Assembly: GCA_041476445.1 (NCBI GenBank)
Contig: JBGOTK010000001.1
Coordinates: forward strand, 1 to 25,694
Length of the DNA: 25,694 nt
Source: Minisyncoccia bacterium
GTDB lineage: Bacteria > Patescibacteriota > Minisyncoccia > UBA6257 > JACOXY01
Reading direction: 5' to 3'
Positions within the stretch are counted from its first letter, which is position 1; each line of letters starts with the position of its first letter. Below, piece by piece: positions 5,286 through 25,660 of the stretch. The translations under genes and the position numbers were made by a program. The notes beneath the pieces are model-generated. The model saw only the letters and a program-made list of their open reading frames with translations, was not told the origin of the DNA and did not search any database.

Positions 5286-7328
5286 ATGAACGATATTTTC
5301 TTGCGCGCTACGAAGGTCTTGCTGTACCTCGCGCCAGTTTCCGTGCTCATTGTGGCGAGTTCAATGTTCTTCCCCTTCATCGTGGGCAAGGCCATTTTAT
5401 TACGGATCATGGTTGAACTTGGCTTATTCGCCTATGTTTGCTATCTCCTCTCGCCTGGCAGCGCGGAAAAGTGGGAACATTTTAAGACAGTGAGTCGCCA
5501 TCCCCTCTTCATCGCCCTCGCGACCTTTACCCTGCTCTTTCTCTTATCAAGCCTTACCGCCGTAGACTCAATGATTGCCTTCTGGTCAAACTTTGAGCGC
5601 GGAGAAGGGGCGCTCCAAATGCTCCATTATGGAATTTATTTCTGCTTGGTGGCTTTGGTCTTGAGAAGCAAGCGTGAGTGGTATGCCTATAGCGGCTGGA
5701 TTCTTTTCTTGGGACTATTTGTTTCTCTCTACGCTTGGGGACAGCGCTTCGGCGGCTCAGCGATGGGCTTCTTCGGCGATGGAACCCGAGCCTCGGGCAC
5801 GCTGGGGAATCCGCTGTATCTTTCGACCTTTATACTTTTTCTATTTTTCTTCGCCCTCTGGCTCATAAAAGAGAAGCAGGACCTACTGCTGCGCATTGTC
5901 TTGGTTATGTACAGCATCTTTCAACTCGCAACCTTCGCGGCACTCGCCCAATCGCGCAACGGCGTGGCCGGTCTTGGTCTTGGCATCGTTGTCGGATTTT
6001 TCACTTTGGCATTCCTCAAGACGAATACACTTACTATCGGTTCCTACTCTCTCCGCCGTATCGCAGCTGGAATCTTAGTGCTAAGCATTCTGCTCGGGGG
6101 AATATTTTATGTCACCCGTACCAATCCTTTCTGGCAAAATTTCCCCGGACTGAAGCGTTTTGCGCGCGAACGGGTGCTCACCGGCATCGACGACCGCGTC
6201 TGGACGTGGGAAACGACGCTCCAGGGCATTAAGGAAAAACCATTCTTAGGTTGGGGACCGGAAAATTTTCCCATTATCTTCGACAAGTATTACAACGCGA
6301 ATCATTTTGGATCGGACAGCTGGTTCGATAGGGCCCACGACATTTATCTTGAATATCTGATCGACGGCGGCATTGTGCTCTTTCTTGGCTATATCGCTAT
6401 CTGGGCCATGTTCATCCGCGAACTACGGCGCCGGCGCCACCTCTTTCCGCCCGTCACCTTGGCGCTCTTTACTGGTTTTGCGACCGCTTATTTCGTTCAA
6501 GGGCTCACCGCGTTTGAAGTGCTGCCGATCTATATACTGCTCTACGCCTTTTTTGCCTTTTTGATACGCCTCTCGCTTGATCTTGATGCGCCGATAGACG
6601 ACCGCGACCAGAGGAAACACCCCACTCACGGAGCCAGCAGCCGCGAGGTGCCTCTCTGGCATTACCTGGTCATTATCGGGGTGGGCTCAGCGGTGGTGTT
6701 AGCCATGTACTTCGCAAATTATTTGCCCTATAGGAAAAACCGTTTGCTGCTTACCGCGGCTGCAAGCCAAGGCAATCAAGGAGAAGCCTTCCTTGTATTT
6801 ATGGGTGGCAAAGACCCGCAGACTGGAAAAGAGTACCCCGGGGCGCTTACCTACTACTCCCCGATAGGGCAACAAGAAACCGTACAGTATTTCAATTTAT
6901 TCGTCCTTAAAATACTTGAAGCCAATGCCAATAATCCGGAGTTTGCTAAACAGGCCGACTCTATAAAGCAGCTGGTGCAAAGAACCAATGAAATATACGA
7001 GGAGAACGAGAACACGCCCTTTCGGGCCGTGGGCGCTAAAACGCTTTACTATTTGGGGCTGATACACTTCCGTGCCGCCATGATTACTCGCGACCAGACT
7101 CTCATCGACAAAGCAGAGACGCTTATGCGTAAAGGCTACGCCCTGGCTCCTGACCGGCTGGAGTTCATCTACGGCCTCCTCGATATCGCCGCAGCCAAGA
7201 GCGACCGAGTCGCAGCTGGACCACTTATAGAGCGCGCCAAAACACTCCGCCCCGATCTCCAGCAGAATGCGGCCTATGAAGCACTTTTCGCGAAAGACTC
7301 AGTAACAAGCACACCTAAGAAGCCCTGA
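5286..7328 (+). CDS. O-antigen ligase / O-oligosaccharyltransferase family membrane protein with a helical (TPR-like) C-terminal region
   Basis: Many TM segments; motifs RASGTLGNPLY, QSRNG, RVWTW...KEKPFLGWGPENF, WFDRAHDIYL. Confidence 0.85.
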   Translation: MNDIFLRATKVLLYLAPVSVLIVASSMFFPFIVGKAILLRIMVELGLFAYVCYLLSPGSAEKWEHFKTVSRHPLFIALATFTLLFLLSSLTAVDSMIAFWSNFERGEGALQMLHYGIYFCLVALVLRSKREWYAYSGWILFLGLFVSLYAWGQRFGGSAMGFFGDGTRASGTLGNPLYLSTFILFLFFFALWLIKEKQDLLLRIVLVMYSIFQLATFAALAQSRNGVAGLGLGIVVGFFTLAFLKTNTLTIGSYSLRRIAAGILVLSILLGGIFYVTRTNPFWQNFPGLKRFARERVLTGIDDRVWTWETTLQGIKEKPFLGWGPENFPIIFDKYYNANHFGSDSWFDRAHDIYLEYLIDGGIVLFLGYIAIWAMFIRELRRRRHLFPPVTLALFTGFATAYFVQGLTAFEVLPIYILLYAFFAFLIRLSLDLDAPIDDRDQRKHPTHGASSREVPLWHYLVIIGVGSAVVLAMYFANYLPYRKNRLLLTAAASQGNQGEAFLVFMGGKDPQTGKEYPGALTYYSPIGQQETVQYFNLFVLKILEANANNPEFAKQADSIKQLVQRTNEIYEENENTPFRAVGAKTLYYLGLIHFRAAMITRDQTLIDKAETLMRKGYALAPDRLEFIYGLLDIAAAKSDRVAAGPLIERAKTLRPDLQQNAAYEALFAKDSVTSTPKKP

Positions 7329-8148
7329 GGGTTTTCAGGTATTCACGCATCTCTTTGCCGAATTCCTCATGATGCGCACCGAAGTACGCGTTGGCTTTCA
7401 TAAGCCCCAGTTTTGAACCGCAATCAAAACGCGTGCCCTTGAATTCAACACCGAATACCCGGCCGCCTTTTTTCATGTACGCAAGTAAGGCGTCAGTAAG
7501 ATAAAATTCGCCGCCGATTGTGGCATTTGCCTTATCGCTGCATAATTTTTTAATCTCTTTAAACAGTTCAGGGGTAAGCACGTAACGGCCGATAATCGAG
7601 AGGTTCGAGGGCGCATCTTCTAGCTTCGGCTTTTCTACGAGGGTTTGCACCTCGAAAATGCCGCGCTGTCTGCTGCCTGCCGACCCCTTAGTTGGAGTAA
7701 CGCCTACAATGCCGTAACGGGAAACTAAAGCCTTAGGTACCCGCTCAAGGAGAAGCACCGGTGCCTTCATTTTTTTCGAGAGCGCTACCATGGCGCGTAC
7801 GGTGCGGCCTCCCTCTACTAATACATCATCGCCGAATGAAACGTAGATGAACTTCTCCCGACGGACCAAGGGCTGACCCTTTAATATGGCGTCGGCATTG
7901 CCACGCATGACTTTTTGCGTGGCAAATGTTATGGAGCGGGCGCCGCCATATTTCGTAACATATTCCCTGACCTTCTCCTGATGCGGCGAGGTTACAAACA
8001 CAAGATCGCGAACCCCCGCAGCCGCAAGTTCGTCGATGGCGTACTGAATAAGCGGCTTATCGGCCACGCCAAGCAAATACTTAGGGACTGACCACGTAAG
8101 CGGTTGGAGGCGCGTACCCCAGCCAGCTACCGGCAGAATGGCTTTCAT
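7315..8148 (-). CDS. galU: UTP-glucose-1-phosphate uridylyltransferase (GalU-like nucleotidyltransferase)
   Basis: MKAILPVAGWGTRLQP...PK...DKPLIQY, GDD, VEKP, GRYVLTP, FDCGSKLG. Start at the ATG at 8148. Overlaps the convergent ligase gene by 14 nt. Confidence 0.85.
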   Translation of the reverse strand: MKAILPVAGWGTRLQPLTWSVPKYLLGVADKPLIQYAIDELAAAGVRDLVFVTSPHQEKVREYVTKYGGARSITFATQKVMRGNADAILKGQPLVRREKFIYVSFGDDVLVEGGRTVRAMVALSKKMKAPVLLLERVPKALVSRYGIVGVTPTKGSAGSRQRGIFEVQTLVEKPKLEDAPSNLSIIGRYVLTPELFKEIKKLCSDKANATIGGEFYLTDALLAYMKKGGRVFGVEFKGTRFDCGSKLGLMKANAYFGAHHEEFGKEMREYLKTLRAS

Positions 8149-8151
8149 ATG

Positions 8152-16722: not shown

Positions 16723-18072
16723 CTAAGAAGTAATAAATTCTTTTAGCTTCGCGAGCTCGCGGTCCAAAACTTCACGACTTCGCGCCTCAATATTTAAACG
16801 CAATAATGATTCGGTATTAGATTTGCGGAGATTAAACCGCCAGTCGGAATATTCGACGGAGAGACCGTCAATATGCTCGACTGTGCCGTCTTTATACTCA
16901 CTTTCAGCTCGCGCAATGATTTCGTCTTTCTTTTCGGTTTCAAAATTAATTTCGCCAGAGATGAAGTGTGTTTCGAGGAGTGGGCGCACCACTTCAGAAA
17001 AAGGTTTCCCCTCGCGCGAGAGGAGATCGAGCAGTAAAAGCACTGGGTAAATACCACTATCTAAAGACATGGTTTCCTCAAAATAGAAATGGGAACTTAG
17101 TTCTCCAGCAAAAACCGCGCCTTCGCGCTTCATGACCTCGGGAATAAAGGAGTGGCCTACGCGGCTAATGATCAAACGGCCGCCGCCGCGCTCCACGACA
17201 TCTTTGATCGGCCAAATAACGCGCGGCTCACCTACAATCGCGCTCCCCGGTTTTTTCTTTAAAATTTCTTGGGCGAAGAGTGCCGTCATAAAACAGCCTT
17301 CTACTAGCTCGCCCCTTTCGTCATAGAAAAATACCCTGTCGCCGTCCGCATCCCAGGCAATGCCCATATCCGCGCCCGCACTTTTCACCAGTTCTGAAGT
17401 TTCTTTACGATTTTGTGGGAGCATCGGATTGGGGCTGCCTTTGGGGAAGGTACCATCCGGCTCCTCATCAAGCCCCACAAGGGTAAGCGGCAGATTGGCG
17501 CGCTCTACAAACTGCCGAAATACTTTGCCAGACATACCAAAATTCGCGTTCATCACCATCTTCATGGGTTTGATATTCGCTACATCAAACTTCTCGAGCA
17601 GAAAATCAAAATAGGCAGGCAGCACGTCTTCTCGTTGTATGGTGCCGGGCTTCACGAGTTCCGGTTTGCGATCTTTTACCGCTAGCTCATAGATCTTCAC
17701 GAGACCGCTTTCTGCGGAGAGCGGTCCCATGCCTGAGCGAACCAATTTCAGACCGTTCCACTCCCGGGGATTGTGCGAGGCCGAGATGAAAACGCCGCCA
17801 TCAACGCCCAAGTGCTCGGAGGCAAAGTAATAGACGTCTACCGGTACGACGCCAATATCAAAGACATGCACGCCGCTCTCCTTAAACGCCCGGCAGACCG
17901 CGTCAAATAGGGCGGGACCTGACTCGCGCACATCGCGCCCCACCACCACCTTCCAGGCCTCAAGATGCGCCGCAAAGGCCTTGGCGATCGCCGCAACCAC
18001 CTCCTCGTTGATTTCCTTCGGATAGCGCCCGCGGATATCGTAGGCTTTGAAGATTTCTCTATTGATCTCCAT
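16723..18072 (-). CDS. Phosphomannomutase/phosphoglucomutase
   Basis: IFKAYDIRG, ISASHNP (phosphoserine loop), DADGDR (metal loop), GELSSH. Start at the ATG at 18072. Confidence 0.9.
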   Translation of the reverse strand: MEINREIFKAYDIRGRYPKEINEEVVAAIAKAFAAHLEAWKVVVGRDVRESGPALFDAVCRAFKESGVHVFDIGVVPVDVYYFASEHLGVDGGVFISASHNPREWNGLKLVRSGMGPLSAESGLVKIYELAVKDRKPELVKPGTIQREDVLPAYFDFLLEKFDVANIKPMKMVMNANFGMSGKVFRQFVERANLPLTLVGLDEEPDGTFPKGSPNPMLPQNRKETSELVKSAGADMGIAWDADGDRVFFYDERGELVEGCFMTALFAQEILKKKPGSAIVGEPRVIWPIKDVVERGGGRLIISRVGHSFIPEVMKREGAVFAGELSSHFYFEETMSLDSGIYPVLLLLDLLSREGKPFSEVVRPLLETHFISGEINFETEKKDEIIARAESEYKDGTVEHIDGLSVEYSDWRFNLRKSNTESLLRLNIEARSREVLDRELAKLKEFITS

Positions 18073-18171
18073 TGATGTGCTAATGATACACAAATGACTC
18101 GATGAAGTGAACGCCCTGAGCTCGAAACTGCATTGAATTGAGGCCATTTTTAGGGTAAAGTTACCTTCGTA

Positions 18172-20307
18172 ATGGCCAGACGCAAAGCCAAAAGGGAAGA
18201 AGAGGATTGGGACGAGGAAGACGAGGACCAGGGTGATGCCTGGCTAAGACCCGAGACAAAAAAAACCATTCTCGCTATTTTTTTTATTGTAGCGGCCATT
18301 CTTCTAGTGCTCTCACTCTTCGGCAAAGCCGGACCAGCGGGCGACATGATTTATCGTTTTTTTAACTGGCTGCTCGGCCTCGGTTACTTCCTTTTGCCGC
18401 TCGCCTTTCTCTTTGCCGCCGCCGTATTCCTTATCGCCGAGCGGAAAAAGATACTTATTACGACGATTATCGGCGGAATTTTACTGGTACTCTCCGGACT
18501 GGGCTTTATCGACATTATCTCGCCGGATAAAGGCGGTGTCTTAGGGTCGCTCGTGGGCTCAATAGAAATTCCCTTTGGTTATACCGCTTCAATCGTGCTT
18601 ACTGTAGCGCTCTTCCTGGCAAGCGGCATCATAATGCTCAACACACACATTGTCTTAAAAAATCCGCTTAAGCGTCCGCTGCGTAAGAAGACGGATATCG
18701 AAGCCCTTAATTTGCCCGACGAGGCAGAAGAGAATGATGCCGAAGAGGCGGAAGAGGAAGAGTCCGACGAAGATGAGCGTGAGCAAGAGGACGAGTCGGA
18801 AGAAGAAAAAGAGCTTATGGTAACCGAGGGCGATATGCGGCCCGAAGGAAAACGTAAAGCCTTTACATTGCCCAAAGTAAGCAAGGATTATACACCGCCG
18901 ACACTCGACTTGCTCGTGTCGTCCGTTGAAAAACCGACCTCCGGCGACCTCAGAGCAAACGCCAATATCATCAAGCGCACCCTCGAGAGCTTCGGCATCC
19001 CGGTTGAGATGAGCGAGGTTAACATTGGCCCCAAGGTTACGCGCTACAGCCTGAAGCCAGCCGAAGGCGTGAAGCTCGCGAAAATCACGGCGCTCAAGCA
19101 AGACCTCTCGCTCGCGCTGGCCGCGCACCCCATCCGTATCGAGGCGCCCATCCCGGGTAAATCGCTCGTCGGCATCGAGGTACCGAATAAGTCCGCCGCT
19201 ATCGTGCGCCTGGGCTCGCTCATGATCTACCCGGAGTTCGCGAGTTCGGGACAGCTGGGCTTTATTCTCGGCCGCGACGTCACCGGCAATCCCATTTTCG
19301 CCGACATCTCAAAGATGCCCCACCTCCTCATCGCCGGCGCGACCGGCAGCGGCAAGTCTGTCGCCTTGCACGCGCTTATCGTTTCTCTTTTATATAAAAA
19401 CGGTCCGCAGACGCTTCGTTTTGTCATGATCGATCCCAAACGTGTCGAGCTCTCAATCTATAACGGCATACCGCATCTTGTCTCGCCTGTCGTAATGGAC
19501 GGCAAAAAGACCATGGGCGTGTTCCGTTGGGCAATCAAAGAAATGGAAAATCGCTACGAAGTTCTCCAGATGTCCGGGAACAAGGATATTAAGAGCTACA
19601 ATGCGGCGCACCGCTCTGATCCCCTGCCCTTTATCGTAATCATCGTAGACGAGCTCGCCGATCTTATGGCCGCGCACGGCCGCGAGATTGAGGGTTCGAT
19701 CGTGCGCCTCGCGCAGATGGCTCGCGCGGTAGGTATTCATCTTATCCTCGCGACTCAGCGGCCCTCGGTTGAAGTCATCACCGGCCTCATCAAGGCAAAC
19801 ATCACGAGCCGCATGGCGCTTCAGGTAGCGAGCCAGGTGGATTCACGCACCATCCTCGACGGCTCGGGCGCCGAGTCGCTCCTCGGCGGTGGCGACATGC
19901 TTTTTGTCTCATCTGATTTTTCAAAACCCAAACGTATCCAGGGAGCCTACCTTAGCGAAGAAGAAATGAATGCCGTCGCCGACTTTATTCGCAGTCATAA
20001 CGAGGCGCCGGTTACCGAAGACTCGGAGAACTCCGTTCTGAGCGCCCTAGACGGCGCCGAAGTCGAGGCGCGCGGGAACTCTAAGGAAATTTTCGACGAG
20101 TTTGCCGATGCCGGAGACGGCGACGACGATGAAATCGTGGAGCAAGCTACCAACCTGATTCGGGAAACTAAAAAAGCTTCGGCTTCGTTTTTACAGCGAC
20201 ATTTAAAGATCGGCTACGCCCGCGCTGCGCGCGTGCTTGATATCCTAGAGAAAGAGGGTAAGATAGGGCCTGGACGGGGGGCCAAAGAACGCGAGGTCTT
20301 TTTGTAA
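18172..20307 (+). CDS. ftsK: DNA translocase FtsK/SpoIIIE
   Basis: N-terminal TM helices, acidic linker, motor domain (GATGSGKS, IDPK, DELAD, ATQRPS) and C-terminal gamma domain (ASFLQRHLKIGYARAARVLD). Confidence 0.95.
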   Translation: MARRKAKREEEDWDEEDEDQGDAWLRPETKKTILAIFFIVAAILLVLSLFGKAGPAGDMIYRFFNWLLGLGYFLLPLAFLFAAAVFLIAERKKILITTIIGGILLVLSGLGFIDIISPDKGGVLGSLVGSIEIPFGYTASIVLTVALFLASGIIMLNTHIVLKNPLKRPLRKKTDIEALNLPDEAEENDAEEAEEEESDEDEREQEDESEEEKELMVTEGDMRPEGKRKAFTLPKVSKDYTPPTLDLLVSSVEKPTSGDLRANANIIKRTLESFGIPVEMSEVNIGPKVTRYSLKPAEGVKLAKITALKQDLSLALAAHPIRIEAPIPGKSLVGIEVPNKSAAIVRLGSLMIYPEFASSGQLGFILGRDVTGNPIFADISKMPHLLIAGATGSGKSVALHALIVSLLYKNGPQTLRFVMIDPKRVELSIYNGIPHLVSPVVMDGKKTMGVFRWAIKEMENRYEVLQMSGNKDIKSYNAAHRSDPLPFIVIIVDELADLMAAHGREIEGSIVRLAQMARAVGIHLILATQRPSVEVITGLIKANITSRMALQVASQVDSRTILDGSGAESLLGGGDMLFVSSDFSKPKRIQGAYLSEEEMNAVADFIRSHNEAPVTEDSENSVLSALDGAEVEARGNSKEIFDEFADAGDGDDDEIVEQATNLIRETKKASASFLQRHLKIGYARAARVLDILEKEGKIGPGRGAKEREVFL

Positions 20308-23532: not shown

Positions 23533-24351
23533 TTATATTTTTTCTAAAAGTTTGTAGAAGTTTTCAAATAGCTTCGCTACGAGTATTGGGCCAGTGCCAC
23601 CAGGTGTGGGCGTGTAAAAAGCTAATTTTTTCTCACTCATCGAGAGCGGCTCGGGATCAAAGTCGCCGATCCATGTACCGTTTTTTTCCGAGTAACCAAA
23701 ATCGATAACTGCTGCTCCTGGTTTAAGCATCGAAGTTTTTATAAAACCGCCGGCGCCGGCGCCCAGCACCACGAGATCCGCGCGAGAGATTAGAGAAAGA
23801 TCGCTTTCTTTGTCGAGCATGATTATTTCGCGCGCTTTGCCGATGAGCCAGGTTGCTACAGGTTTCCCTACCAGAATGCCCATGCCTACGACTGCTACCG
23901 TAGCACGACTCAGATCGAATTTCTTTTCTTTAAGTATTTCTTCGGTCGTAGCGACTGCAGGTGGAAGGACTGGATTTCTTTCCGTGTAAAATGCTCCGAG
24001 GGCTCGTTCGGAGAGGGCATCCACGTCTTTCTCGCGCGGAATAGCATTTAAGGCGTAGTGCCGATTTAACTCGCCCGGCAAGGGCAGCTGGAGCACTAGC
24101 CCACCCACCGCCTTCGATTGGCCAAGTTTGCCAATCTCGTCGCGCAGCTCGTCGTTTGTAATCGTCGGTAGAAACTCATAGATACGAAAATCGACGCCGA
24201 GCTCTGCGGCAGTTTTCTTTTTGATGCGCAAAAAGTTAACGGATGAGGGATCCTCCCCTACCAAAACCGCACCGAATATCTTGGTCGTTTTCGGACGCTT
24301 TTTAACCTCGTCCAAAATCCGCCGCTGTATTGCTTTGCCGTCAATCTGCAT
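23533..24351 (-). CDS. folD: Methylenetetrahydrofolate dehydrogenase/cyclohydrolase FolD
   Basis: IDGKAI, LVGEDPSS, LQLPLP, KDVD, VGKP, TPTPGGTGP. Start at the ATG at 24351. Confidence 0.85.
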   Translation of the reverse strand: MQIDGKAIQRRILDEVKKRPKTTKIFGAVLVGEDPSSVNFLRIKKKTAAELGVDFRIYEFLPTITNDELRDEIGKLGQSKAVGGLVLQLPLPGELNRHYALNAIPREKDVDALSERALGAFYTERNPVLPPAVATTEEILKEKKFDLSRATVAVVGMGILVGKPVATWLIGKAREIIMLDKESDLSLISRADLVVLGAGAGGFIKTSMLKPGAAVIDFGYSEKNGTWIGDFDPEPLSMSEKKLAFYTPTPGGTGPILVAKLFENFYKLLEKI

Positions 24352-24354
24352 AAA

Positions 24355-24568
24355 TAGAATCCAGCTCACTACTAGTCCCAGTCCGCGTTGCCTAGAAAAA
24401 TAAAGTATACCTTATATTTCTAGGCAACCCTGCGCGCTACGGCAAACATCACACATCCCTTTGTCGCTCCTCGTCGACGTACTCCCCAAGTACAATCTTC
24501 TCGTCGCTTCGCGGACTGCACGATGTTTTCACATAGCGCAGCCGGAAATAGTAGTGAGATGGATTCTA
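24355..24568. repeat. Inverted-repeat-bounded branched element, copy 2 (214 bp)
   Basis: Terminal inverted repeats 24355-24381 and 24542-24568 (23/27 match), beginning and ending in TA. Hairpin A spans 24387-24428 and hairpin B spans 24434-24539. Confidence 0.75.
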
Positions 24569-24610
24569 GAAGGAATGTATACGAAAATGCCGAAAAAGTG
24601 AAGTGACACG

Positions 24611-24629
24611 GCGAGCGGGCGTTGCTCGC
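24611..24629 (-). other. GC-rich hairpin just after the RT stop codon
   Basis: GCGAGC-N7-GCTCGC with no U tract. Confidence 0.35.
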
Positions 24630-24652
24630 GAGTCGCTATTACGTTTACTATC

Positions 24653-25660
24653 CTATTCAGACGATCGTCTGGATAGGATAGTAGCTTCTCTAATCTTCTT
24701 CTGTAACTTCTCTGTATTGCCGTGCTTTAACAGACCGAGATACGAATGTATCGTTTCGGAAGTCGGGTGCTCAGCCAATCTCCTCATCATCCGCTTCCTT
24801 GTCGCAGTCCGGAGTACCCGATTGTCCGCAAAATGCACCCAACCCAGGAAATCCACTCCGGAAGCTAATGTCTTGAGAAAAAGCTTTTGTGGGTGAAGTT
24901 CCAGCTTCAAATACTCAAGGAGAAATGCCTGTATACGTGGGATGAGCATTTCAAGCCACCTTCTATCTTCTGAAAATACGACGAAGTCATCGGCATAGCG
25001 GATATAGTATTTGGTCTTCAGTATATGCTTCATATGCCTGTCGAACTCATGCATATAGACATTGACCAAGAGTTGCGAGGTAAGATTGCCGAGCGGTAAA
25101 CCGACTCCAGGCCTGGTCTCAAAGCTCTCTACTACTGCCCGAAGTAGTAAGAGAATGTCTGCGTCGGAGATACGCGTCTCAAGGAGAGAATGCAAGACAC
25201 GGTGATCAATACTCGCGAAAAACTTCCTAATATCGCATTTCAGGACCCACGCAGTACGGGTATTGTTTTTACTTACCTTGTTTGAGAAAGCGCGAAAACG
25301 ATTCAGTGCTTTATGCGTTCCTTTTTCGACTCGGCAAGAATACGAGTCAGCAATAAACGTCTTATCGAAAAACGGATAGAGAATTCTGTAGATGGCATGA
25401 TGCAGGAGTCGATCACGGACTGTAGCTTTATGAATGTCGCGCGGCTTGGGATCATTGATTTTGAAAGCGTGATAAGGGCCGTGGCGGTAGGTATGCTGCT
25501 TCAGTTCCTCGTGGAGCGTCAAAATATTATCCATAAGCTGGAGTGAGAATTCTTGGACATCCTGCTTATGGCGCTTGCCTCTCACAAACTCTTCCCAAGC
25601 TGCCAAAATATTTTCTATACTTATGATATCTTGATAAGTACGTGTTAGTTGGCTGCGCAT
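24653..25660 (-). CDS. Reverse transcriptase, DGR-type
   Basis: KPRDIH...RDRLLHHA, DSYSCR..KGTH, KCDIRKFFASIDH, GLPLGNLTSQ (the GxxxSQ motif of DGR RTs), YIRYADDF, DFLGW. 335 aa, with no maturase or endonuclease domain. Confidence 0.85.
   Translation of the reverse strand: MRSQLTRTYQDIISIENILAAWEEFVRGKRHKQDVQEFSLQLMDNILTLHEELKQHTYRHGPYHAFKINDPKPRDIHKATVRDRLLHHAIYRILYPFFDKTFIADSYSCRVEKGTHKALNRFRAFSNKVSKNNTRTAWVLKCDIRKFFASIDHRVLHSLLETRISDADILLLLRAVVESFETRPGVGLPLGNLTSQLLVNVYMHEFDRHMKHILKTKYYIRYADDFVVFSEDRRWLEMLIPRIQAFLLEYLKLELHPQKLFLKTLASGVDFLGWVHFADNRVLRTATRKRMMRRLAEHPTSETIHSYLGLLKHGNTEKLQKKIREATILSRRSSE

What the first reader, a model, noticed from the sequence alone, without database searches (positions are those of the whole stretch)
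24355..24568. Branched element copy 2 lies between the RT and folD, with TA ends
Seen: the 27-bp TIRs begin and end with TA, enclose a 42-bp near-perfect palindrome and hairpin B, lie 84 nt downstream of the RT stop on the same transcript strand, and end 3 nt before the folD ATG. Known: TA-flanked TIR elements (ERIC, Correia, RUP) are MITE-like, and retron ncRNAs also consist of two structured arms closed by terminal inverted repeats. Inference: either a MITE mobilised in trans, or a structured RNA that could be a template or primer for the adjacent RT, which would explain the dispersed copy at 8152. Caveat: copy 1 lacks TA ends.
Basis: partly seen in the sequence, partly recalled or inferred. 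Interest (0 to 1): 0.7.

Follow-up and report, generated by a model that had tools for sequence, protein, structure and literature searches.

The report
Selfish palindromic repeat beside DGR reverse transcriptase
The 214-base hairpin-rich stretch between the reverse transcriptase and folD is a shortened copy of a 270-base selfish palindromic DNA repeat scattered through this tiny bacterium and many relatives, and it has nothing to do with the neighbouring reverse transcriptase, which belongs to a diversity-generating retroelement with its own template elsewhere.

Summary
In detail: the inverted ends, the 42-nt palindrome, hairpin B, the 84-nt gap to the RT stop and the 3-nt gap to the folD ATG are all as described.

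The element is one of about 14 copies of a ~270-nt branched palindromic repeat in this 749-kb CPR genome. In copy 2 the top of hairpin A has been deleted. A model of half the element finds the family in 44 of 151 genomes of the same order.

The RT link is not supported:
- The RT is a DGR enzyme. It has the LGNLTSQ motif, and bAvd and adenine-mutated TR/VR pairs sit on contigs C29 and C90.
- 18 of 38 element-bearing genomes gave no match to this RT.
- An element lies within 1.5 kb of 1 (perhaps 2) of 30 RT loci and next to 0 of 30 folD loci.
- Differences between copies are not adenine-specific.

Stems covary strongly with almost no G-U pairs, which points to a DNA-level palindrome.

Mobility is supported. 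One relative carries 97-99.6% identical copies, in both orientations, plus unoccupied sites. The source metagenome holds an element-free allele at copy 1.

No transposase fits: IS630-type is found in 0 of 44 element genomes, and Y1/HUH shows no enrichment.

This scan already reported the family from copy 1 (e1-5290393). My results agree and add to it.

The parts
24355..24568 (.). Copy 2 of the branched palindromic repeat (214 nt). It is an internally deleted member of a ~270-nt family.
   Evidence: nhmmer and CM hits; alignment A2 shows about 56-60 nt missing from the top of hairpin A.
24355..24381 (.). Left terminal inverted repeat arm (closing stem).
   Evidence: 25 nt, 88% complementary. 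The arms covary within each copy across the family.
24387..24428 (.). Remnant of hairpin A: a 42-nt near-perfect palindrome. Its basal stem is homologous to the base of hairpin A in full copies.
24434..24539 (.). Hairpin B, the best conserved half. It has a covarying lower stem, pyrimidine-rich CCTCGTC internal loops and a GTAC-tipped apical hairpin (24479-24493).
   Evidence: CM R1 scores it at 136 bits.
24542..24568 (.). Right terminal inverted repeat arm.
8152..8420 (.). Copy 1, full length (TIR + hairpin A + hairpin B + TIR), same family orientation as copy 2. It ends 2-3 nt from the NTP-transferase (galU-like) ATG.
   Evidence: An element-free allele in the source sample joins 8150 to 8424 (table 5c).
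24569..24652 (-). Unique 84-nt spacer between the RT stop and the element. It has no other copy in the genome apart from the palindrome at its RT-proximal edge.
   Evidence: BLAST against the genome.
24646..24683 (.). 38-nt palindrome overlapping the RT stop codon. It belongs to a different repeat family and is not part of the branched element.
24653..25660 (-). DGR-type reverse transcriptase (335 aa, LGNLTSQ and YADD motifs).
23533..24351 (-). folD (methylene-THF dehydrogenase/cyclohydrolase). The likely start is the ATG at 24351.
   Evidence: (both Pfam domains).

Best explanation
Copy 2 is a decayed, internally deleted member of a family of ~270-nt non-coding nested palindromes: a ~30-bp terminal inverted repeat closing two long hairpins. 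These behave as selfish, non-autonomous mobile DNA in the short intergenic spacers of this CPR (Parcubacteria-type) bacterium and about 30% of sampled genomes of its order. It landed by chance in the spacer between a DGR reverse transcriptase and folD, and later lost the top of hairpin A. The structure is kept at the DNA level, as Watson-Crick symmetry equal on both strands. This suggests that whatever moves or maintains the element recognises a folded or dyad-symmetric DNA form, not a strand-specific RNA.

Shown: family membership, dispersal, lack of coding capacity, covariation, independence from the RT and from folD, near-identical copies in both orientations in a relative, and occupied versus unoccupied sites.

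Inferred: that it inserts (or is excised) as a whole unit at sites resembling its own GGAAC(C) terminus or at TA; that the enzyme acts in trans and is not a classical IS630, IS4/IS5 or Y1 transposase; and that insertion 3 nt before a start codon is tolerated because this genome shows no Shine-Dalgarno signal.
For: The family has 8 full and about 6 partial copies in the 749-kb genome, all intergenic. No frame stays open across copies. The consensus fold is the branched three-way structure, and 52 of 89 pairs show compensatory changes among the 9 own copies.

In 70 half-elements from 31 genomes (the window's own and 30 others), 91% of stem cells are paired, against 61% in shuffles and 32-44% in slid controls. 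28 of 30 pairs show double changes. G-U is only 1.6% of cells, against 3.3% for A-C, with no consistent strand bias. Folding energy also does not consistently favour one strand.

The family is found in 44 of 151 genomes of the order.

The RT is a DGR enzyme. Its homologues sit next to bAvd. TR/VR pairs with 22 of 22 and 21 of 21 mismatches at TR adenines lie on C90 and C29, and bAvd is present on both contigs. 18 of 38 element genomes gave no match to this RT, among them some with 14-19 element matches. An element lies within 1.5 kb of an RT in 1 (perhaps 2) of 30 loci, against roughly 0.75 expected from element density. None lies next to folD in 30 loci; the only match is a weak hit (E 0.0045) about 1.1 kb away in one locus. 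Differences between copy 2 and other copies fall on A in only 9-22% of cases.

Mobility: in G055 four copies are 96-99.6% identical while their flanks are much more diverged. They sit in both orientations relative to the conserved flanks CTTGGCTTC / CAGTCTC. Two paralogous unoccupied sites read GGAACC or GGAGCC in place of the element. A contig in the source sample bridges 8150 to 8424 without copy 1.

SD-like motifs lie upstream of 10% of long ORFs, against 10.8% background.
Against: No enzyme that could move the element was identified, and no longer element with the same ends exists in this assembly. The assembly has 94 contigs, and repeats may be unassembled.

No clear target-site duplication: 21 of 31 elements have none. 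The 4-nt CCCA repeat at the G055 junctions fits insertion as well as slippage deletion.

The own-genome copies are only 67-79% identical, so they may be long immobile. Their intact stems could reflect intra-palindrome gene conversion rather than selection.

Conserved unpaired purine/pyrimidine blocks inside the hairpins would also fit a functional RNA or single-stranded DNA ligand. No expression data exist.

The element-free allele at copy 1 carries 7 unrelated letters, so it is a replacement, not a clean empty site.
Confidence: 0.8

Rival explanations
1. The element is a structured RNA (retron-like ncRNA, or a DGR accessory RNA) that serves as template or primer for the adjacent RT, and reverse transcription explains the dispersed copies.
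For: It lies 84 nt downstream of the RT on the same strand. The minus (RT-sense) strand of copy 2 folds better (-101.5 versus -78.5 kcal/mol). One other genome (G055, contig C22) has an element about 620 nt downstream of an RT homologue.
Against: The RT is a DGR enzyme with its own TR upstream. The second RT copy in this genome has no element nearby. 18 of 38 element genomes gave no match to this RT. 28-29 of 30 RT loci have no element. Substitutions between copies are not adenine-specific. The strand preference in folding is not shared by other copies. Rfam gives no match.
Confidence: 0.03
2. It is an IS630/Tc1-type MITE that duplicates TA on insertion and is moved by a DDE transposase encoded elsewhere.
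For: Copy 2 is flanked by TA on both sides. TA is the commonest flank across 31 elements (10 left, 9 right), and 4 of the 31, besides copy 2, have it on both sides. It has TIRs, small size and intergenic location.
Against: DDE_3 is found in 3 of 151 genomes, none of which carries the element, so 0 of 44 element genomes have it (for the own genome). Because the termini read A-GAAC...GTTC-T in many copies, a flanking T/A is equally an extension of the TIR. The young G055 copies and copy 1 have no TA.
Confidence: 0.07
3. It is a REPIN/BIME-like element moved by a RAYT or IS200-type Y1 (HUH) transposase that recognises the hairpins as single-stranded DNA.
For: Structure rather than sequence is conserved, and pairing is Watson-Crick only. 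There are conserved unpaired motifs next to small hairpins, and no TSD. This genome does carry an IS200-like element.
Against: Y1_Tnp is found in 13 of 44 element genomes against 30 of 107 without the element. High-copy, nearly closed genomes such as G026 and G096 show none. None of the 11 Y1_Tnp loci searched is flanked by the element. The hairpin ends of the IS200-like insertion are unrelated in sequence.
Confidence: 0.1
4. It is a host-serving structural module that works in either orientation (transcript-end stabiliser, terminator or insulator, or a protein-binding platform at gene boundaries), kept by selection rather than by mobility.
For: 9 of 15 copies sit 2-4 nt from a start or stop codon. 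The stems stay intact although copies are 20-33% diverged. Dyad symmetry gives each strand one purine-loop and one pyrimidine-loop hairpin. Copy 1 carries an outward promoter-like site facing galU.
Against: It is not conserved at orthologous places (0 of 30 folD loci). Occupied and unoccupied sites exist, and there is an element-free allele. Presence across families is patchy. Copy 2 has no promoter-like or terminator-like site.
Confidence: 0.15

Closest known systems
Bacterial MITEs: Correia elements (Neisseria), ERIC/IRU (enterobacteria), RUP (Streptococcus pneumoniae)
   Same: Non-coding, TIR-bounded, dispersed in intergenic DNA, able to fold into long hairpins when transcribed. TA is often at the ends, and presence/absence polymorphism occurs.
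   Different: This element is about twice as long. It has a branched nested-palindrome body (two long internal hairpins with conserved unpaired blocks) and strong compensatory covariation between copies. It has no consistent TA duplication, and no IS with matching ends or IS630-type transposase in the host genomes. What I say about Correia, ERIC and RUP is from my own knowledge, not tested here.
REP / BIME / REPIN elements with RAYT (Y1-HUH) transposases
   Same: Intergenic palindromic units whose structure is conserved more than their sequence. They have no TSD and are often wedged at gene ends.
   Different: No co-occurrence with Y1_Tnp genes and no Y1 gene flanked by the element. The unit is much larger and is closed by a 30-bp TIR.
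Retron msr-msd non-coding RNA
   Same: Inverted repeats closing a structured region next to an RT gene.
   Different: The RT here is a DGR RT, not a retron RT. Retron ncRNA lies upstream of its RT, whereas this element lies downstream. The element has many copies and occurs in genomes where the RT was not found.
DGR template repeat and DGR RNA (the real partner of this RT)
   Same: Located in the same cassette as the RT.
   Different: The TRs of this genome are on C29 (7791-7908) and C90 (792-885). They lie upstream of the RT, are unrelated in sequence to the element, and show adenine-only mismatches to their VRs.
T-shaped inverted terminal repeats of parvoviruses (AAV ITR, flip/flop)
   Same: Architecture only: an outer palindromic stem closing two internal hairpins, found in two orientations that are exact reverse complements of each other (as in G055).
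   Different: This element is chromosomal and interstitial, not a replicon end, and no Rep-type HUH gene is linked. The comparison rests on my own knowledge and is a structural analogy, not a claim of membership.

Membership tests
MITE (non-autonomous TIR element) | Terminal inverted repeats | tested here: met
   25-30 bp arms in every full copy. The arms match each other better than they match other copies.
MITE (non-autonomous TIR element) | Short, with no coding capacity | tested here: met
   214-292 nt. Stops are scattered in all six frames, and no frame is conserved.
MITE (non-autonomous TIR element) | Many dispersed copies | tested here: met
   About 14 copies in the own genome. Found in 44 of 151 genomes of the order, many with multiple matches.
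MITE (non-autonomous TIR element) | Direct target-site duplication | tested here: inconclusive
   21 of 31 elements have no adjacent direct repeat. TA is seen at 10 of 31 left ends and 9 of 31 right ends. The G055 junctions share CCCA, which fits either insertion or slippage deletion.
MITE (non-autonomous TIR element) | A parent IS with the same ends and a transposase | tested here: not met
   There are no solo or widely spaced TIRs in the own genome. DDE_3, DDE_Tnp_1 and TnpB were not found in the own genome. DDE_3 is in 0 of 44 element genomes. DDE_Tnp_1 is in 0 of 5 and rve in 1 of 5 high-copy genomes.
MITE (non-autonomous TIR element) | Presence/absence at otherwise matching sites | tested here: met
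   G055 has occupied loci (L144-L146, L151) and unoccupied loci (L159, L160). There is an element-free allele of copy 1 in run X1.
REPIN / RAYT system | Co-occurrence with, and flanking of, a Y1 (RAYT) gene | tested here: not met
   13 of 44 element genomes have Y1_Tnp, against 30 of 107 without the element. There is no element in the 11 Y1_Tnp loci searched.
Retron | Retron-clade RT with its ncRNA immediately upstream | tested here: not met
   The RT scores best against group-II-like models, far below every curated cut-off, and carries the DGR motif. The element is downstream of it.
Retron | ncRNA and RT inherited together | tested here: not met
   The RT was found in 20 of 38 element genomes. 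An element lies near an RT in 1-2 of 30 loci.
Diversity-generating retroelement (for the RT, not the element) | RT with the [LIV]GxxxSQ motif | tested here: met
   LGNLTSQ is seen in the translation. That this motif marks DGR RTs is from my own knowledge.
Diversity-generating retroelement (for the RT, not the element) | TR/VR pair differing only at TR adenines, with VR at the 3' end of a target gene | tested here: met
   C90: 22 of 22 core mismatches at A. C29: 21 of 21. The link of C29 to the window's RT is inferred from contig ends and the count of cassettes. It is not shown by an overlap.
Diversity-generating retroelement (for the RT, not the element) | Accessory Avd gene | tested here: met
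   bAvd at C90:426-734 and C29:7953-8156, and next to homologous RTs.
Diversity-generating retroelement (for the RT, not the element) | The branched element acts as TR or VR | tested here: not met
   It has no similarity to the TRs. Mismatches between copies are not adenine-specific.
cis-regulatory RNA of folD (e.g. ZTP or THF riboswitch) | Match to a known family, and conservation upstream of folD | tested here: not met
   No Rfam match at E up to 1. No element lies next to folD in any of 30 folD loci in element-bearing genomes; the only match is a weak hit about 1.1 kb away.

The most novel reading that the evidence does not exclude
The branched palindrome is a new kind of structure-dependent mobile DNA of CPR bacteria that spreads without any classical transposase. 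One possible route is whole-unit insertion, in either orientation, at sites sharing 6-8 nt with its own GGAAC(C) terminus, carried out by a not yet recognised enzyme or by host replication/repair acting on the folded three-way junction.
Probability: 0.2. Interest if true: 0.6.

Novelty: new variant of a known kind. Interest (0 to 1): 0.35.

Why it matters
For the finding as posed, the result is deflating: the element next to the RT is not a retroelement RNA, and the RT is an ordinary CPR DGR enzyme.

The repeat family itself is of moderate interest. I found no description of it in two full-text paper searches. It occupies a noticeable share of the scarce intergenic DNA of ultra-small genomes. 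It keeps an elaborate nested-palindrome structure through compensatory change, and it shows recent movement in one relative. Yet none of the usual transposases accompanies it.

It also breaks assemblies and can be mistaken for riboswitches, small RNAs or retron RNAs in CPR annotation, so recognising it avoids false leads.

Tried and rejected
- Rfam at E up to 1 on the window, and up to 5 on the RT loci, gave nothing relevant. There is no group II intron domain around the RT.
- Coding potential of the element: rejected.
- Strand preference of folding: copy 2 favours the RT-sense strand, but the nine copies split 5 to 4.
- The 541-aa gene bracketed by two inverted copies on C2 was a possible transposase. 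It is an ABC-type solute-binding protein.
- tRNA genes as insertion targets in G055: none found.
- The genome search does not accept DNA alignments, so a covariance model of the B half was built instead. The full 270-nt model was not attempted because of calibration time.
- Sequencing runs: no RNA holder is listed, and all six holders are sediment metagenomes kept as contigs. Expression could therefore not be examined.
- Laying contigs gave no listed joint across copy 2. Many joints were not shown, so this says nothing about polymorphism there.
- I could not decide whether the G055 unoccupied sites are never-occupied targets or excision/deletion remnants.
- Two full-text literature searches for such repeats in Patescibacteria/CPR returned nothing pertinent.

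Full report
**Observation.** The stretch 24355-24568 has inverted ends of 25 nt at 88% complementarity (27 nt with four mismatches) that start and finish with TA. It contains a 42-nt palindrome (24387-24428) and a second long hairpin (24434-24539). It lies 84 nt beyond the stop of a minus-strand RT gene (24653-25660) and 3 nt before the ATG of minus-strand folD (23533-24351). It folds far better than shuffled sequence, with z of -8.7 and -10.3. A related stretch lies at 8152-8420.

**What the element is.** The window is the whole of contig C1 of a 749-kb, 94-contig, 50% GC genome that is 95.7% complete. The RT homologues come from Parcubacteria-type CPR bacteria.

Profile searches of this genome find eight full-length copies of about 270 nt. 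They are at C1:8152, C2:5157, C2:17651, C2:19650, C3:20059, C28:7613, C44:866 and C89:2163. There are also copy 2 and about five further fragments, all between genes.

Each full copy has a terminal inverted repeat of about 30 bp, a long hairpin A, a short central CCC-loop-GGG turn, and a long hairpin B that resembles the reverse complement of A. The whole unit is therefore nearly its own reverse complement.

In copy 2 only the base of hairpin A survives as the 42-nt palindrome. About 56-60 nt of its upper part are missing. No reading frame is conserved.

**Structure.** RNAalifold on the nine own copies returns the branched fold, and 52 of 89 pairs show compensatory double changes.

A covariance model of the B half collected 70 half-elements from 31 genomes, the window's own and 30 others. 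In these, 91.3% of stem cells are paired, against 61.4% after shuffling and 32-44% with slid partners. 28 of 30 pairs show changes on both sides.

Pairing is almost purely Watson-Crick. G-U makes up 1.6% of cells and A-C 3.3%, with no consistent strand bias. Folding energies of the nine copies do not favour one strand.

This pattern is what a DNA-level palindrome gives, and it is unlike a strand-specific functional RNA. The two arms of each TIR also match each other better than they match other copies.

**Distribution.** The model finds the family in 44 of 151 genomes sampled from the same order. Presence is clustered by family, for example 7 of 7, 6 of 6 and 6 of 7 in some families and 0 of 7 in others. 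Up to about 10 full elements are scored per genome.

**The RT.** The 335-aa protein carries LGNLTSQ and YADD. It scores below the cut-off of every curated RT family. It has thousands of 60-72% identical homologues in CPR genomes.

In three long contigs these homologues sit beside a bAvd gene and a small upstream gene, which is the layout of a diversity-generating retroelement. DGRs are known to be common in CPR, and one DGR clade is restricted to Patescibacteria (PMC8144416).

This genome has two RT copies. The second is split between C90 and C5 by an insertion after the residues PRDIH.

On C90, upstream of that RT, lie three parts:
- bAvd at 426-734.
- A TR at 792-885.
- A VR at 1279-1372, at the 3' end of a 193-aa gene. 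All 22 core mismatches fall at TR adenines.

A second cassette ends contig C29. It has VR 7295-7412, TR 7791-7908 with 21 of 21 mismatches at adenines, and bAvd 7953-8156, which lies 12 nt from the contig end. C90 is contiguous with its own RT, and C1 starts 34 nt upstream of the window's RT. I therefore infer that C29 is the missing upstream half of the window's DGR. No overlap proves it.

**Test of the RT hypothesis.**
- Of 38 element-bearing genomes, 20 have an RT of this kind and 18 do not. The 18 include genomes with 14-19 element matches and 99% completeness.
- Among 30 RT loci with 1.5-kb flanks from element-bearing genomes, one has a full element (G055 C22, about 620 nt downstream) and one has a weak hit. 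Taking about 5 elements per 800 kb and 4-kb loci, I estimate roughly 0.75 hits by chance, so the count is about that.
- The second RT of this genome has no element nearby.
- The 84-nt spacer is unique in the genome.
- Differences between copy 2 and the other copies fall on adenine in 9-22% of cases, unlike the TR/VR pairs.

The element is therefore neither template, primer nor product of this RT.

**Test of a folD role.** No element lies next to folD in any of 30 folD loci from element-bearing genomes; the only match is a weak hit (E 0.0045) about 1.1 kb away in one locus. Rfam finds no riboswitch.

**Mobility.** In relative G055, four copies are 96-99.6% identical and two others are 98.5% identical to each other. 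The DNA around the four-copy group is a much more diverged outer repeat. Relative to its conserved flanks (CTTGGCTTC on one side, CAGTCTC on the other), the whole element, including asymmetric markers 10 nt from its tips, occurs in both orientations.

Two further copies of the outer repeat are unoccupied. They read GGAACC or GGAGCC where the element would be.

This shows that the 271-nt unit is gained or lost as a block. The shared CCCA at both junctions leaves open whether this is insertion at a site resembling the element's own terminus or a slippage deletion.

In the source metagenome, a contig joins window positions 8150 and 8424 with seven other letters. That is an allele without copy 1 (table 5c).

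**Ends and targets.** Across 31 elements, TA is the commonest dinucleotide outside GAAC...GTTC, at 10 left ends and 9 right ends. Only four of the 31, besides copy 2, have it on both sides, and 21 show no adjacent direct repeat. Many termini read A-GAAC...GTTC-T, so TA can be an extension of the inverted repeat.

**Search for a mobilising enzyme.**
- No longer element with these ends exists in the assembly.
- The own genome lacks DDE_3, DDE_Tnp_1 and TnpB-type matches. It has only a fragment of a Y1 transposase at a contig end. This fragment probably belongs to the IS200-like insertion that splits the second RT, but the link is inferred, not shown.
- Across the 151 genomes, Y1_Tnp occurs in 13 of 44 element genomes and 30 of 107 others.
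- DDE_3 occurs in three genomes, none of which carries the element.
- The five richest genomes lack DDE_Tnp_1, and only one has an rve match.
- None of the 11 Y1_Tnp loci searched is flanked by the element.
- The gene bracketed by two inverted copies on C2 is a solute-binding protein.

**Context.** Nine of fifteen copies lie 2-4 nt from a start or stop codon. This genome shows no Shine-Dalgarno signal: 10% of long ORFs have an SD-like motif, against 10.8% background. That may explain why an insertion 3 nt before an ATG is tolerated.

Copy 1 has an outward promoter-like site facing galU. Copy 2 has none.

**Relation to earlier work in this scan.** A follow-up on copy 1 (e1-5290393) reached the same general reading, a selfish, flippable palindromic repeat. 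I reached mine before reading it, and I then tested its 'flippable' claim and its REPIN/RAYT comparison. The flip is real in G055. The RAYT link is not supported by co-occurrence.

**Verdict.** The MITE-like reading is broadly supported, with an unidentified mover. The RT-template reading is rejected.

Noticed in passing
window 24646-24683; also G000 C5:16775-16817, C90:2074-2108, C29:5855-5892 and 6521-6556, C41:2306-2341, C11:10875-10912: The 38-nt palindrome that overlaps the RT stop codon (TACTATCC...ACGATCGT...GGATAGTA) is 92-94% identical to the two palindromes bracketing a paralogue of the window's 16030-16602 gene on C29 (5920-6492, 46% identity). Both RT copies end in it. On C90 and C29 another copy lies upstream of the DGR target gene, so each DGR cassette appears bracketed by this palindrome.
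   Followed up: partly
G000 C29:7285-8168 (outside the window): This is probably the missing upstream half of the window's DGR. It has a VR at 7295-7412 at the end of a target gene, a TR at 7791-7908 with 21 of 21 mismatches at TR adenines, and bAvd at 7953-8156 on the opposite strand, 12 nt from the contig end. Linkage to C1 is inferred, not shown.
   Followed up: yes
G000 C90:1-369 and C5:16788-17696: The second DGR RT copy (91% identical over residues 1-78, 75% over 74-334) is interrupted after the residues PRDIH by an insertion with similar small hairpins at both ends. The reading frame at the C90 side resembles the C-terminus of an IS200-type transposase. C60 starts with the same 141 nt, and a Y1_Tnp fragment sits at the end of C56.
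   Followed up: partly
whole genome G000: There is no Shine-Dalgarno signal. GGAG/GAGG/AGGA occurs at -20 to -4 in 10% of 399 long ORFs, against 10.8% of random 17-mers. Upstream regions are A/T-rich instead.
   Followed up: partly
window 8165-8194, minus strand: A promoter-like site (TTGAGA, 18 nt, TATTAT) lies inside the left arm of copy 1, pointing at the galU-like gene. Its possible ATG at 8160 lies 5 nt after the -10 box. Copy 2 has no equivalent.
   Followed up: no
window 8150-8424 (run X1, the probable source sample): A contig of depth 3.6 joins 8150 to 8424 with the letters TTCGAGC in place of copy 1. This is an element-free allele in the same sediment sample.
   Followed up: partly
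G000 C2:17651-19920: A family-5 solute-binding protein gene (18021-19646) is bracketed by two full element copies in opposite family orientation. The layout resembles a composite transposon, but the cargo is ordinary.
   Followed up: partly
G055 loci L144-L146, L151, L159, L160: The element sits inside a second, older family of nested palindromic repeats (an outer stem, CTAATGCTTTTCGAGAGAC and its complement, plus a side hairpin). L151 also carries an extra 23 nt followed by a second GGAACC after the element. CPR intergenic DNA seems to hold several layers of such repeats.
   Followed up: partly
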